Source of the DNA: Kayfunavirus PDP351P3
Sequence record: OZ035732.1
DNA: 39,050 nt
Reading direction: 5' to 3' (one strand)
The translations under genes were made by a program, and so were the position numbers. Under the pieces are notes generated by a model. The model saw only the letters and a program-made list of their open reading frames with translations. It did no database searches and was not told where the DNA came from. The first letter of the stretch is position 1. Each line of letters begins with the position of its first letter. This document shows positions 30-20,284 of this stretch, piece after piece.

Positions 30-293
30 ATGACGCAGATGGACTTAGAGAAGTTCCTCTTGATGCTGGATACTGAACGTGCTCGCCTCATGCTGCAAGA
101 CCTGCGGGATGACTCTAAGCGTTCACCTCAGCTCTACAACGCCATTGAGAAGCTGCTTGCTCGTCACAACTTCGTGCTAAGCAAGGTGTCTGTGGACGAG
201 AAGACGCTGGCTGATATGGAGGCCCTGAACGCAGAGTACGATAAGGTGCTTTCAGCGACTGAGGATAATGACACCGGGTATGGTGTTCAATAA
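30..293 (+). CDS. small terminase subunit / DNA maturation protein A (T7 gp18-like)
   Basis: 87-aa ORF with AAAGGAGG RBS upstream; aligns over full length with T7 gp18 as recalled (LEMLDT...RSPQLYNAI.KLL.RH); synteny upstream of 18.5 and 19. Confidence 0.85.
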   Translation: MTQMDLEKFLLMLDTERARLMLQDLRDDSKRSPQLYNAIEKLLARHNFVLSKVSVDEKTLADMEALNAEYDKVLSATEDNDTGYGVQ

Positions 294-296
294 GTG

Positions 297-337
297 TTAG
301 ACTCAAGGTCATCTACAGGTGGCCTTTATGATTAACA
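297..337 (+). promoter_or_regulatory. conserved structured RNA element copy 1 (putative RNase III processing site, R18.5-like)
   Basis: Motif AGACTCAAGGTCAT-[small hairpin CTAC/GTGG]-GGCCTTTATGATTA, one of three copies, each about 20 nt upstream of an RBS; lower stem AAGG/CCTT. Confidence 0.45.
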
Positions 338-8965: not shown

Positions 8966-8988
8966 CCTAAACTATCACTATAGGATTA
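8966..8988 (+). promoter_or_regulatory. phage RNAP promoter (phi1.1-like; candidate primary replication origin region)
   Basis: CCTAAACTATCACTATA-GGATTA; position after gene 1 corresponds to T7 phi1.1A/B, which flank the primary origin. Confidence 0.75.
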
Positions 8989-9030
8989 GACTCAAGGTCA
9001 TGACTCAAAGTCGTGGCCTTCATGATTAAC
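8985..9030 (+). promoter_or_regulatory. conserved structured RNA element copy 2 (putative RNase III site R1.1-like)
   Basis: AGACTCAAGGTCAT-[GACT caa AGTC hairpin]-GTGGCCTTCATGATTA; upper hairpin differs from copies 1 and 3 by compensatory changes. Confidence 0.5.
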
Positions 9031-10683: not shown

Positions 10684-10707
10684 CCATCAACAACCTAAGG
10701 AGACTCT

Positions 10708-11378: not shown

Positions 11379-11533
11379 CTGAGGTTGAGAAGAAGTACAT
11401 CGTGGAGCTTGAGGGTCGCGTTCAGTCCTTCGAGGTTCCGGTGTACGCAAAGTCTCTTGAAGAGGCTACCATGAAGTCCCAAGAGTATGAGGACGCTGGG
11501 TTTGTGGTCGGACGGATTCGTCCTGAGACCTAA
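11375..11533 (+). CDS. host RNA polymerase inhibitor (T7 gp2-like)
   Basis: 52-aa ORF (below ORF-track cutoff); [14 protein letters not shown]...[14 protein letters not shown] matches recalled T7 gp2 (SFEVPIYAETLDEA...PAGFEVTRVRP). Confidence 0.75.
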
Positions 11534-11551
11534 ACTATCACTGTAGGACAT
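11529..11551 (+). promoter_or_regulatory. phage RNAP promoter variant (phi2.5-like)
   Basis: CTAAACTATCACTGTA-GGACAT; one core mismatch (G at -3). Confidence 0.55.
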
Positions 11552-11590
11552 ACGTCCAGTTCGTAACTTTAAATTAGGAGATTTACACCG

Positions 11591-12289
11591 ATGGCTAAAG
11601 AGAAACTGAAGACTTTCACCACTCCGGTAGCTGGTATCGTTGAGCCTTACGCATGGCTGAACAAAGCAGACACCAAGTTTAATGAGCGTGGTGAGCATAA
11701 GGTTAACCTGACTTTCAGTCTGGATGACCCGAAGGTCCGTAAGATGATTGATGTCTTACAGAAGATTCACGACGATGCGTATGCGAAAGCACTCGCAGAC
11801 CACGAGAAGAACCCACCTCAGGTTCAGCGTGGCAAGAAGCCTATCGAGCCGCGTGAAGGCGATATGCCGTGGATTGAGAATGGTGACGGTACTGTTACCC
11901 TGAAGTTTAAATGCTTTGCGTCTTACCTTAAAGACGGCAAGTCAGAGCCTATCGTATTACGGTTCTACGACACCGATGCTAAACTCATCCGTGACGTCCC
12001 GAATATTGGCGCTGGCTCCAAACTGAAGGTCAAGTTTAAAGTCATGCCGTTTAAGTGGAACGCTGCGACTGGTGCAAGCGTTAAGCTCCAGCTTGAGTCC
12101 TGCCTTCTGGTAGAACTGAAGGAGTGGAAAGGCGATGGTGCTGGTGGTGATGGTGGCTGGGGTGATGATGAAGACATCGGTACTGGCTACAAAGCGTCAA
12201 CTGATGGTGACTTCGGGTCTGATGACTTCGGTGACGATGGTTCCGAAGGTGATGACGACTCCGGCTCTGGTGGCGATTACGACTTCTAA
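11591..12289 (+). CDS. single-stranded DNA-binding protein (T7 gp2.5-like)
   Basis: 232 aa; GDMPW..NGDGT.T.KFKC.AS, GSKLKVK, KWN.A.GASVKLQLES..LVEL, acidic Gly/Asp-rich tail ending in F as in T7 gp2.5. Confidence 0.95.
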   Translation: MAKEKLKTFTTPVAGIVEPYAWLNKADTKFNERGEHKVNLTFSLDDPKVRKMIDVLQKIHDDAYAKALADHEKNPPQVQRGKKPIEPREGDMPWIENGDGTVTLKFKCFASYLKDGKSEPIVLRFYDTDAKLIRDVPNIGAGSKLKVKFKVMPFKWNAATGASVKLQLESCLLVELKEWKGDGAGGDGGWGDDEDIGTGYKASTDGDFGSDDFGDDGSEGDDDSGSGGDYDF

Positions 12290-12741
12290 TGGCCCAATGG
12301 TCTGCAAAACGGGGGCACTCTGTGGGTGCCTACCGCTCTGGACTTGAAGCCAAGAACCAGCAGTGGCTGGAACAGAACGGCGTCAAAGCGGAGTACGAAA
12401 GCCATTATATCAACTATGTGATTCCGGCTTCCGACCACAAGTACACACCAGATTTTATCCTTCCCAACGGTATCATCGTGGAGACCAAAGGTATATTCGA
12501 TAGTGATGACCGTAAGAAGCACCTTCTGGTACGAGAACAGCATCCAGAGTTAGACATCCGGTTCGTGTTCTCAAGTTCCCGCTCCAAGTTATACAAAGGG
12601 TCTCCGACCACGTATGGCGCATGGTGCGAAAAGAACGGCTATAAGTATGCCGATAAGTTCATCCCGGTTGAGTGGCTCCGAGAGGCGACTGTACGTCTGC
12701 CTTCAGGTATACTCATCCCCAAGAAGAAAGGAGTTAAGTGA
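12289..12741 (+). CDS. endonuclease I, Holliday-junction resolvase (T7 gene 3-like)
   Basis: 150 aa; VGAYRSGLE, YVIPAS.H.YTPDF.LPNGI.VETKG...SDDRKKHLL.REQHPELDIR.VFSSSR.KLYKGSPT.YG matches recalled T7 endo I. Confidence 0.95.
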   Translation: MAQWSAKRGHSVGAYRSGLEAKNQQWLEQNGVKAEYESHYINYVIPASDHKYTPDFILPNGIIVETKGIFDSDDRKKHLLVREQHPELDIRFVFSSSRSKLYKGSPTTYGAWCEKNGYKYADKFIPVEWLREATVRLPSGILIPKKKGVK

Positions 12742-13196
12742 TGACTACCTGTAAAGACCTTGAAGTTGGAACACGTTACAGATTCTCAAAGAACACCCTG
12801 TTGAATAACCCCGGATTCACTGATGCTGTTTTCGAAAAGCGAGAAGACCATAGCGTAATTGTGGAGAAGGGGTGGCATCCTGAGGATTACATCGGTGAGA
12901 CTACCAGCTGGAATGGTCACGAGACCTACAGTGTAGAAGTTGTTGACCAGCCTCAAGTCCTGCCAGCTTCGAGCGTACCACCTGTGACTGTGAAGCGTGA
13001 AGTCCTGACCATCGACAAGATTGGTGTGGGCCAGACGTTCATCGTCCACGGTAAACCGGAGGAAGTGTACGTTAAGATTAGTAACTCACACGTCTTCAAC
13101 CATAAGCGCCTCCAGATGCACACCACGGATGCACAGCGCTTCACCCAGCACCTGAATCTTGTGGTCGTAGAATTGGTGGTGTACAATGGTAAGTAA
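12741..13196 (+). CDS. hypothetical protein (151 aa) between endonuclease I and amidase
   Basis: ORF-track ORF (ATG 12741, AAAGGAG RBS); typical local codon usage; T7 has no gene here; no homolog recognised. Confidence 0.6.
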   Translation: MTTCKDLEVGTRYRFSKNTLLNNPGFTDAVFEKREDHSVIVEKGWHPEDYIGETTSWNGHETYSVEVVDQPQVLPASSVPPVTVKREVLTIDKIGVGQTFIVHGKPEEVYVKISNSHVFNHKRLQMHTTDAQRFTQHLNLVVVELVVYNGK

Positions 13197-13644
13197 GGTA
13201 CAGTTCAACCCACGGTCCCGGACTGACGCTATCTTCGTTCACTGTTCGGCTACCAAGCCAGAGATGGACATCGGGGTAGAGACCATCCGTATGTGGCATA
13301 AGCAACAAGGCTGGCTGGACGTAGGCTACCACTTTATCATCAAGCGCGATGGTACTGTGGAAGAGGGTCGCCCGGTCAATGTCGTAGGGTCACACGTTAA
13401 GGACTGGAACTCACGGTCTGTAGGCGTCTGCCTTGTAGGTGGAATTGATGCTAAGGGAAAGTTTGAAGCTAACTTCACTCCGGCCCAGATGAACTCACTG
13501 CGAAACAAGCTGGCTGACCTGAAGGTCCTGTATCCTCAGGCAGAAATCAAAGCACACCATGACGTAGCGCCAAAGGCGTGTCCAAGTTTCGACTTACAAC
13601 GCTGGCTGTCTACCAACGAACTGGTCACTTCCGACCACTGTTAA
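13186..13644 (+). CDS. N-acetylmuramoyl-L-alanine amidase / T7 lysozyme (gene 3.5-like)
   Basis: 152 aa; VQF..R..TDAIFVHCSATKP, WLDVGYHFIIKRDGTVE.GR, GVCLVGGID.KGKF.ANFTPAQM.SLR, AHH.VAPKACPSFDL.RW, terminal ELVTSD match recalled T7 gp3.5. Confidence 0.95.
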   Translation: MVSKVQFNPRSRTDAIFVHCSATKPEMDIGVETIRMWHKQQGWLDVGYHFIIKRDGTVEEGRPVNVVGSHVKDWNSRSVGVCLVGGIDAKGKFEANFTPAQMNSLRNKLADLKVLYPQAEIKAHHDVAPKACPSFDLQRWLSTNELVTSDHC

Positions 13645-15694: not shown

Positions 15695-15859
15695 GTGTTA
15701 AAGAAACTTAAAGCTCGATACCATCGGTTCATGTACAAATGGTGGAGCGATGAAGCAACCTGCCTGTCGAACATTCTGGGAGACCAAAGGTTCGACTCTA
15801 AGGCATGGAAGAAAGCTAACCGGAAGTTTATGTATCACTTCTTGCGTACAGACTTATAG
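15695..15859 (+). CDS. hypothetical small protein (54 aa, GTG start)
   Basis: GGAGGA RBS 7 nt upstream of GTG; below ORF-track cutoff; Trp/Lys-rich; T7 gene 4.5/4.7 position. Confidence 0.3.
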   Translation: MLKKLKARYHRFMYKWWSDEATCLSNILGDQRFDSKAWKKANRKFMYHFLRTDL

Positions 15860-15860
15860 G

Positions 15861-15902
15861 TCTAGACTCAAGGTCATTCACTTCGAGTGGCCTTTATGAT
15901 TA
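15861..15902 (+). promoter_or_regulatory. conserved structured RNA element copy 3 (putative RNase III site upstream of DNA polymerase)
   Basis: AGACTCAAGGTCAT-[CACT tcg AGTG hairpin]-GGCCTTTATGATTA, then RBS GCGGAGGA and ATG 15924. Confidence 0.5.
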
Positions 15903-20200: not shown

Positions 20201-20223
20201 ACTAAACTATCACTATAGGGACT
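20201..20223 (+). promoter_or_regulatory. phage RNAP promoter (phi6.5-like)
   Basis: ACTAAACTATCACTATA-GGGACT. Confidence 0.75.
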
Positions 20224-20284
20224 TTAGGACCTAAGATATGACTATAAGATAGACTTTAGTCTTAACTTAAAGAGGAGATTCAAG

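What the first reader, a model, noticed from the sequence alone, without database searches (positions are those of the whole stretch)
12741..13196. Unknown 151-aa gene inserted between endonuclease I and the amidase
T7 genes 3 and 3.5 are adjacent. Here a 151-aa ORF with a good RBS and typical local codon usage lies between them, overlapping both neighbours by a few codons (so it is translationally coupled and expressed with the DNA-metabolism genes). I see no recognisable motifs. Its placement suggests a role in DNA metabolism or host takeover.
Basis: seen in the sequence. Interest (0 to 1): 0.5.

Follow-up and report, generated by a model that had tools for sequence, protein, structure and literature searches.

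The report
K1F-type gene 3.2, swappable N-domain
The ORF is a real, conserved phage gene, the counterpart of the uncharacterised "gene 3.2" of K1F-like T7 relatives: a very conserved C-terminal small beta-barrel joined to an N-terminal barrel that related phages swap, duplicate or delete like a cassette, and its function is still unknown.

Summary
The 151-aa ORF at 12741..13196 (+) is real. It has an AAGGAG ribosome-binding site, genome-typical codon usage and strong purifying selection. The window is a complete Kayfunavirus (K1F-like) genome, and the ORF is the ortholog of K1F gene 3.2. That gene has been annotated as hypothetical since K1F was deposited and is present in 219 GenBank T7-like phages. 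An exhaustive profile search of 1.84 billion proteins found only 14 clusters, all in this family. The gene always sits just downstream of endonuclease I; in nearly all loci the amidase follows directly, though some have an extra ORF in between.

No Pfam, NCBIfam, PADLOC or PDB sequence match and no literature on function were found.

New here is the anatomy. The protein has a basic, near-invariant C-terminal SH3-like barrel (motif SNSHxFN-x4-QMHTT-x3-RF), which in many phages is the whole 74-aa protein. A proline-rich linker, conserved at protein level, joins it to an acidic N-terminal SH3-like barrel. That N-terminal barrel is one of at least four mutually unrelated cassette types exchanged by recombination.

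The best guess is a class II accessory or host-interaction adaptor, possibly counter-defence, with a constant core and an exchangeable specificity module. This is inference only.

The gene is ordinary as an annotation and moderately interesting as an architecture.

The parts
11530..11554 (+). Phage RNA-polymerase promoter (CTAAACTATCACTGTAGG...). It heads the transcription unit 2.5 - 3 - 3.2 - 3.5 - 3.7 and corresponds to T7 phi2.5.
   Evidence: This is one of a 10-11 copy promoter repeat family. T7 has phi2.5 in the same place.
12289..12741 (+). Gene 3, endonuclease I (150 aa). Its 3' end carries the ribosome-binding site of gene 3.2 and forms the left homology arm of the N-cassette.
   Evidence: Pfam Phage_endo_I, E 2.8e-81. 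Nucleotide identity to relatives is about 95% up to roughly 12760.
12728..12733 (+). Shine-Dalgarno sequence AAGGAG of gene 3.2.
   Evidence: Read directly from the sequence. Annotated as a ribosome-binding site in phage Pipis.
12741..13196 (+). Gene 3.2 coding sequence, 151 aa plus stop.
12741..12950 (+). N-terminal variable cassette (aa 1-70), the 'window type'. It is acidic (about -5) and predicted to be an SH3-like barrel.
12951..12989 (+). Proline-rich linker PQVLPASSVPPVT (aa 71-83). It forms the right edge of the cassette.
   Evidence: The peptide is conserved across all N-types while synonymous sites vary freely.
12990..13193 (+). Constant C-terminal domain (aa 84-151). It is basic (pI 9.5) and predicted to be an SH3-like barrel. 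In many relatives it is the whole protein (74 aa).
13080..13142 (+). Invariant motif SNSHvFN-x4-QMHTT-x3-RF (aa 114-134).
   Evidence: It is invariant even in homologues that are 30-37% identical.
13186..13644 (+). Gene 3.5, amidase/lysozyme. Its start overlaps the end of gene 3.2 by 11 nt.
   Evidence: Pfam Amidase_2 and PHROG 822. The same 11-nt overlap is present in the distant homologue loci L026 and L027.

Best explanation
The ORF is the Kayfunavirus ortholog of K1F gene 3.2, a class II ('DNA-metabolism period') accessory protein. It is co-transcribed and translationally coupled with endonuclease I and the amidase.

The protein has three parts:
- A constant, basic C-terminal SH3-like beta-barrel that carries the family's function. 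It is near-invariant, and in many phages it is the entire 74-aa protein.
- A conserved proline-rich linker.
- An exchangeable N-terminal SH3-like barrel. This barrel is one of several unrelated cassette types that move between phages by recombination between the 3' end of gene 3 and the linker.

Inferred mechanism (not shown): the constant barrel binds one conserved partner, either a phage or host protein or a nucleic acid. The N-terminal cassette adds a strain-variable binding specificity. The whole would then act as a host-interaction or counter-defence adaptor rather than a core replication enzyme.

Shown: the gene is real, orthologous to gp3.2, syntenic, under purifying selection and of this domain architecture, and the cassette is exchanged, duplicated and deleted.

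Inferred: the folds (AF2 models), expression timing, binding function and any counter-defence role.

The confidence figure below is for the descriptive part. The adaptor or counter-defence mechanism on its own rates about 0.35.
For: Identity and synteny:
- The window is 93-95% identical to Kayfunavirus genomes.
- The gene is 96-97% identical in nucleotides to hypothetical genes of SEA1f, TM1, Vec13 and Pipis. It corresponds to K1F gene 3.2.
- It matches PHROG 16385 at E 3.4e-51.
- Even 30-37% identical homologues lie directly after endonuclease I.

Selection:
- The C-domain has dN/dS of 0-0.19, comparable with endonuclease I and the amidase.
- The N-cassette has dN/dS of 0.1-0.26.
- The linker peptide is conserved despite free synonymous change.

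Cassette behaviour:
- Nucleotide identity runs at about 95%, falls to 31-48%, then returns to about 90%, with sharp edges at about 12760 and 12940.
- There are four major N-types plus singletons. The four major types are not related to one another by hhalign, with probability below 7%.
- GenBank counts are K1F-type 56, window type 26, a third type 10 and a fourth type 2, out of 219 records. None of the types occurs outside this slot.
- In the same phage pairs the N-cassette has dS 0.04-0.14 while the linker plus C-domain has dS 0.33-0.95. This indicates recent horizontal spread of the cassette into diverged backbones.
- Tandem forms exist: P0121 with two N-modules, and L025 with a junction at a shared GTGACTGT.
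- Deletion forms exist: P0125, P0133, P0136 and the 74-aa lineage.

Fold:

Transcription unit: promoters lie at 11530 and 13880 and none lies inside the gene.
Against: - There is no functional evidence of any kind. Pfam, NCBIfam, PADLOC and PDB sequence searches gave no hit.
- BFVD neighbours are all uncharacterised.
- No paper on function was found.
- The C-domain model rests on a shallow alignment of 16 sequences.
- The N-type does not track host in any obvious way. The window type is found in phages isolated on K-12, K1 strains and Klebsiella.
- Variability alone does not prove an arms race.
Confidence: 0.85

Rival explanations
1. The protein is a nucleic-acid-binding accessory factor of phage replication or recombination, working with gp2.5 and endonuclease I. 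The basic C-terminal barrel would bind DNA or RNA in the manner of KOW, Sm, L2 or EF-P-type barrels. The N-domain would be a modulatory add-on.
For: - The gene sits between the SSB and endonuclease I genes and the amidase, in the class II unit.
- The C-domain has pI 9.5 and an invariant polar His/Asn/Ser/Thr/Arg hairpin.
- The best structural neighbours include the nucleic-acid-binding barrels L2, EF-P, RimP, KOW and Tudor.
- Purifying selection is as strong as on endonuclease I.
Against: - The family is absent from T7, where genes 3 and 3.5 abut. Only 14 clusters were found among 1.84e9 proteins, so it is not a general requirement of T7-type replication.
- Cassette-like replacement, duplication and loss of the N-half is unusual for a housekeeping factor.
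Confidence: 0.25
2. The protein regulates its downstream neighbour, the amidase/lysozyme (gp3.5). Indirectly it would then affect the phage RNA polymerase, which T7 lysozyme inhibits. Tight translational coupling would set the stoichiometry.
For: The 11-nt overlap between the end of gene 3.2 and the start of gene 3.5 is conserved even in distant homologues. The two genes are almost always adjacent.
Against: - In PH1061 an HNH gene lies between 3.2 and 3.5. In the P0132 lineage a 118-aa ORF lies between them. Adjacency is therefore not obligatory.
- T7 lysozyme works without such a partner (established T7 biology).
- There is no co-variation or interaction evidence.
Confidence: 0.1
3. Only the C-terminal 70 aa are functional. 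The N-terminal half would be evolutionary debris: remnants of morons or recombination scars fused in frame, with no function of their own.
For: - The C-domain alone is the whole protein in many phages.
- Natural N-deletion variants exist.
- L025 shows illegitimate-recombination products in this slot.
Against: - The N-cassette is predicted with pLDDT of about 90 as a compact barrel.
- It has dN/dS of 0.1-0.26, although this rests on only 2-5 substitutions of each kind.
- It stays in frame in every type.
- It has spread recently into diverged backbones.
- The linker is protein-constrained.
Confidence: 0.1

Closest known systems
gp3.2 of Escherichia phage K1F (YP_424930.1), also EcoDS1 gp3.2 and Cronobacter phage Dev2 gp3.2; PHROG 16385 / 15211 (unknown function)
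   Same: The genomic slot is the same (gene 3, then 3.2, then 3.5). The C-terminal domain is the same (93.8% nucleotide identity to K1F over nt 214-456). The linker, the start/stop overlaps and the transcription unit also match.
   Different: The N-terminal 70 aa of the window protein belong to a different cassette type from K1F's GWPxGTIVTKC type. The two are not related by hhalign. Dev2 and the Citrobacter SH phages have no N-domain at all (74 aa).
SH3-like small beta-barrels (FeoA, the DtxR/IdeR C-terminal SH3-like domain, KapB, ribosomal L2, EF-P domain I, KOW/Tudor)
Fast-evolving accessory / counter-defence genes of T7-like phages (e.g. Ocr gp0.3, gp1.2, gp5.9; the 'accessory regions' concept of Silas et al., bioRxiv 10.1101/2023.04.06.535777)
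   Same: It is a small, non-universal gene in a fixed slot between core genes. It shows allelic replacement, loss and gain between close relatives.

Membership tests
K1F gp3.2 family (PHROG 16385/15211) | Significant sequence match to the family profile or its members | tested here: met
   PHROG 16385 at E 3.4e-51 and PHROG 15211 at E 4.9e-40. There are 254 homologues, the best 98% identical. Nucleotide identity to K1F gene 3.2 is 93.8% over the C-half.
K1F gp3.2 family (PHROG 16385/15211) | Position immediately downstream of gene 3 (endonuclease I) and upstream of gene 3.5 (amidase) | tested here: met
   Window coordinates 12289-12741 / 12741-13196 / 13186-13644. The same order is seen in K1F, PH1061, Pipis, L004-L019 and L020-L027.
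K1F gp3.2 family (PHROG 16385/15211) | Invariant C-domain motif Y..SNSH.FN....Q.HTT...RF | tested here: met
   Window residues Y110, S114-H117, F119, N120, Q125, H127-T129, R133 and F134 are invariant in alignments A1, A2 and A3.
FeoA / DtxR-type SH3-like domain families (Pfam FeoA and relatives) | Sequence match to the family HMM | tested here: not met
   Pfam gave no hit at E<=1 for the protein, or at E<=10 for 16 family members. The PDB profile search returned nothing relevant.
FeoA / DtxR-type SH3-like domain families (Pfam FeoA and relatives) | SH3-like five-stranded barrel fold | tested here: inconclusive
Known anti-defence proteins (Ocr, Tad1/Tad2, Acb, Gad, etc.) | Sequence or strong structural similarity to a characterised anti-defence protein | tested here: not met
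Known anti-defence proteins (Ocr, Tad1/Tad2, Acb, Gad, etc.) | Demonstrated neutralisation of a defence system | not testable with these tools
   This needs efficiency-of-plating assays of knockout and cassette-swap phages on defence-carrying hosts.
T7-type class II (DNA-metabolism period) genes | Location in a phage-RNAP transcription unit downstream of the phi2.5-type promoter, with no internal promoter or terminator | tested here: met
   Promoter copies lie at 11530 and 13880 and none lies between them. T7 has phi2.5 and phi3.8 at equivalent places.
T7-type class II (DNA-metabolism period) genes | Recognisable enzymatic or DNA-binding domain of DNA metabolism | tested here: not met
   No domain was found in any library.
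Imm11 immunity protein (PF07791) | Score above the Pfam gathering threshold | tested here: not met
   12 bits against a cutoff of 22.1, over 27 residues, in 2 of the 10 members scanned individually (4 of 16 in the alignment scan, best E 0.037). Rejected as noise.

The most novel reading that the evidence does not exclude
gp3.2 is a plug-and-play counter-defence or host-takeover adaptor. The invariant C-terminal barrel would dock onto one conserved machine, either a host protease, polymerase or ribosome, or a phage replisome component. The interchangeable N-terminal barrels, of which there are at least four unrelated types and sometimes two in tandem, would decide which strain-specific host factor or immune sensor is captured. 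Phages would re-arm by swapping a 200-bp cassette between two short conserved arms. Deletion variants would then be escapes from immune systems that sense the cassette.
Probability: 0.2. Interest if true: 0.7.

Novelty: already known. Interest (0 to 1): 0.35.

Why it matters
As a gene call this adds nothing new. It is the gp3.2 'hypothetical protein' present in every Kayfunavirus deposit.

What may matter is the architecture documented here, which I found described in none of the papers searched. One of the most conserved small proteins of the genus is fused to a domain-sized cassette. That cassette is replaced, doubled or deleted between otherwise 95%-identical therapeutic-candidate phages, including K1F relatives and phages of the BASEL and Gaborieau collections.

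If the cassette sets a post-adsorption host-range determinant, it would be a compact, engineerable specificity module. It could also explain host-range differences that tailspikes do not account for. The slot is also a clean natural example of short-homology cassette exchange in T7-like genomes.

Tried and rejected
- Family libraries. Pfam, NCBIfam, PADLOC and PDB sequence searches found nothing, whether run with the single protein, the profiles or all alignment members. The weak Imm11 match was checked and rejected: 12 bits over 27 aa.
- Remote homology. An exhaustive HMM search of 1.84e9 representatives gave only 14 clusters, all in the same family. Word-indexed profile searches with the C-domain and with the N-domain added only close relatives.
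- Internal duplication (N-domain derived from the C-domain). hhalign probability is 1-5%, so this was rejected as untestable at sequence level.
- 2H-phosphoesterase-like reading of the two His motifs. I rejected this by reasoning alone. The first motif lacks the H-x-T/S pattern, and the domain size and fold do not fit.
- DNA-level element as the cause of conservation. There is no phage promoter in the gene. Synonymous sites vary freely in both the linker and the C-domain. Conservation is therefore at protein level.
- Internal start producing a free C-domain from the long form. I saw no Shine-Dalgarno sequence upstream of V82/V84 when reading the sequence, so I did not pursue it.
- Literature. 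Searches for gp3.2, gene 3.2, the Kayfunavirus anti-defence and accessory-gene terms, the PHROG ids, the motif and YP_424930 gave no functional data. The K1F genome paper is not in the library.

Full report
**1. Observation**

The + strand carries an ORF from ATG 12741 to TAA 13194-13196, 151 aa. An in-frame GTG at 12738 would add one codon. AAGGAG lies at 12728-12733, 7 nt before the ATG.

The ATG shares one base with the TGA of the preceding gene (TGATG). The last 11 nt overlap the ATG (13186) of the next gene.

The neighbours are endonuclease I (Pfam Phage_endo_I, E 2.8e-81) and an Amidase_2 lysozyme.

A CAI-like index built from the genome's 22 long ORFs gives 0.743 in frame, against 0.50 and 0.58 out of frame. 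The genome mean is 0.70 +/- 0.05.

In T7 itself genes 3 and 3.5 abut at 10706. The only amendment is that the 5' overlap is 1 nt, not several codons.

**2. What genome and which gene**

The first 25 kb of the window are 93-95% identical over about 90% of their length to Kayfunavirus (K1F-like Studiervirinae) genomes. The 39,050-bp window is a complete genome of that genus.

Megablast of the ORF finds 91 phage records. Fourteen match over the full length at 90-97% identity, all annotated as 'hypothetical protein'. The rest match only nt 205-456.

In K1F the gene at this place is annotated as gene 3.2, 'gp3.2 protein'. EcoDS1 and Dev2 use the same name.

PHROGs places the protein in families 16385 and 15211, both of unknown function.

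**3. Distribution**

A word-indexed search of 5.8e9 proteins found 254 relatives.

An exhaustive HMM search of 1.84e9 cluster representatives found only 14 clusters, all small proteins of this family.

tblastn with the C-terminal 70 aa finds 219 GenBank phage records. All those listed are T7-like phages of about 37-41 kb. Nearly all are recorded on Enterobacterales hosts, with one record labelled Enterococcus phage EFA-1. None has a functional name.

Every locus I inspected has the gene directly after endonuclease I. This includes the most distant homologues, at 30-37% identity: P0131, P0132, P0137 and P0129.

**4. It is a protein under selection**

- For the C-terminal domain, dN/dS against 11 relatives is 0.00-0.19. 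For example, there are 0 non-synonymous and 14-15 synonymous differences against L003. This matches endonuclease I and the amidase in the same pairs.
- The linker peptide PxVLPASSVPPVTVK is retained across N-types, while nearly every codon shows synonymous variants.
- No phage promoter lies in the gene. Promoter copies sit at 11530 (before gene 2.5) and 13880 (before gene 4). The gene therefore belongs to the unit 2.5-3-3.2-3.5-3.7, equivalent to the T7 phi2.5 to phi3.8 unit.

**5. Anatomy**

Alignment of 121 sequences shows a near-invariant C-terminal ~80 aa and an N-terminal ~70 aa that cannot be aligned between groups.

BLAST clustering gives four major N-types plus singletons. Their counts below come from a hit list biased towards the query.

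| N-type | Sequences in cluster | GenBank phage records |
|---|---|---|
| K1F type, GWPxGTIVTKC | 62 | 56 |
| Window type | 31 | 26 |
| Third type | 18 | 10 |
| Fourth type | 12 | 2 |

The remaining records, out of 219, carry other types or no N-domain. No N-type was found anywhere but in this slot. Profile-profile comparison finds no relationship between the types, or between any type and the C-domain; probability is below 7%.

- *Viral structures.* BFVD returns only family members and other uncharacterised small phage proteins.
- *Charge and motif.* The C-domain is basic (pI 9.5, about +3). The window's N-domain is acidic, at about -5. The residues invariant across all homologues are Y110, S114-N115-S116-H117, F119, N120, Q125, H127-T128-T129, R133 and F134. 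They fall on the beta4-beta5 hairpin and the following short helix.

**6. Cassette dynamics**

- *Sharp boundaries.* Against phages with another N-type, nucleotide identity is about 95% through gene 3. It collapses to 31-48% between about 12761 and 12940, then returns to about 90% from the linker onward.
- *Recent spread.* Among five phages sharing the window's N-type, the N-cassette has dS of 0.04-0.14. The linker plus C-domain of the same pairs has dS of 0.33-0.95. The cassette is therefore much younger than its backbone and has spread horizontally.
- *Mosaic C-domain.* The dS of the C-domain also often exceeds that of the flanking genes. The whole gene is therefore mosaic.
- *Duplications.* P0121 (226 aa) carries a K1F-type and a window-type module in tandem, in frame. 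Locus L025 has a window-type cassette plus linker joined to a duplicated 3' tail of gene 3. The tail includes its ribosome-binding site and is followed by a complete second gp3.2. The junction lies in a GTGACTGT string common to the gene 3 tail and the linker.
- *Losses.* P0125, P0133 and P0136 are natural deletion variants that have lost part or all of the N-domain. A whole lineage (Dev2, the Citrobacter SH phages, GA2A, L013-L019) encodes only the 74-aa C-domain.
- *Homing endonucleases nearby.* HNH homing-endonuclease genes lie next to this slot in some relatives. One lies between 3.2 and 3.5 in PH1061, and one before gene 3 in L008, L009 and L012. These may promote local gene conversion.

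**7. Function**

Nothing is known. The libraries gave no hit. No paper in the searchable corpus addresses the gene.

My best-supported reading has two parts. The C-terminal barrel carries a conserved binding function, because it is sufficient on its own in many phages and is as constrained as the neighbouring enzymes. The N-terminal barrel is an optional, exchangeable specificity module.

The pattern of replacement, duplication, deletion and recent horizontal spread is what is seen for phage accessory and counter-defence genes. It argues against a core replication role, as does the family's absence from T7. I put about 0.35 on a host-interaction or counter-defence adaptor and about 0.25 on a nucleic-acid-binding replication or recombination accessory factor. 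The regulator-of-lysozyme and 'N-half is debris' rivals each get about 0.1. All of these are inferences.

**8. Comparison and novelty**

Membership in the K1F gp3.2 family is established by sequence, synteny and motif. Membership in any functionally defined family was tested and not met.

The SH3-like fold is a resemblance from predicted models at low Z. The gene is already known as an annotation, with deposited copies 96-98% identical. The domain-level cassette architecture appears not to have been described.

Interest is modest at 0.35: ordinary as a gene call, but a tidy and experimentally tractable candidate for a modular host-interaction factor.

Noticed in passing
L025:3001-3768 (Logan SRR30884456 contig); compare window 12686-12694 and 12982-12992: The gene 3.2 slot is duplicated in tandem. 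A window-type N-cassette plus linker is fused to a second copy of the endonuclease I 3' tail, with its ribosome-binding site, followed by a complete gp3.2 of another N-type. The junction lies in a GTGACTGT string shared by the gene 3 tail and the linker. This is a footprint of short-homology recombination.
   Followed up: partly
L026:115-795 (protein P0121, 226 aa): A natural gp3.2 with two different N-terminal modules (K1F type, then window type) fused in frame ahead of the constant C-domain.
   Followed up: partly
window 3041, 5891, 8967, 10662, 11530, 13880, 20202, 23402, 24381, 28929, 36205 (+): A family of about 11 phage RNA-polymerase promoters with core CTAAACTATCACTATAGG. A degenerate extra copy lies at 20231, 29 nt after the one at 20202.
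   Followed up: partly
window 290-334, 8979-9028, 15855-15902 (+): A conserved element is present in three copies: TAGACTCAAGGTCAT-N5-10-GTGGCCTTTATGATTA. AAGGTCAT and GTGGCCTT can pair as an 8-bp RNA hairpin with two G-U pairs. At 8979 the element directly follows a listed promoter copy (8967); at 15855 it follows a TATAGG string that is not in the listed promoter family. It may be an RNase III-type processing site or a conserved leader.
   Followed up: partly
L002:1946-2317 (phage PH1061); L008 and L009:1900-2349; L012:1995-2444: HNH homing-endonuclease genes are inserted beside the gene 3 / 3.2 / 3.5 block in some relatives. One lies between 3.2 and 3.5 in PH1061, and one before gene 3 in L008, L009 and L012. 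The window has none here. They may contribute to the local mosaicism and the raised dS of the gene 3.2 C-domain.
   Followed up: no
window 12135-12347 (+): A 70-aa alternative-frame ORF spans the end of gene 2.5 and the start of gene 3. It is annotated as gp2.55 in K1F and is present as an ORF in most related loci. It overlaps the acidic-tail codons of gp2.5, so it may be kept open only by that constraint.
   Followed up: no
L021:5456-5812: In the distant lineage that carries P0132, an extra 118-aa ORF with no Pfam hit lies between the gp3.2 homologue and the amidase.
   Followed up: no
window 12813-12815 (codon 25 of gene 3.2): Codon 25 of the N-cassette is Gly, Ser or Gln among five otherwise about 97% identical copies (NNPGFTD, NNPSFTD, NNPQFTD). 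It is a single hot position in a very young cassette.
   Followed up: no
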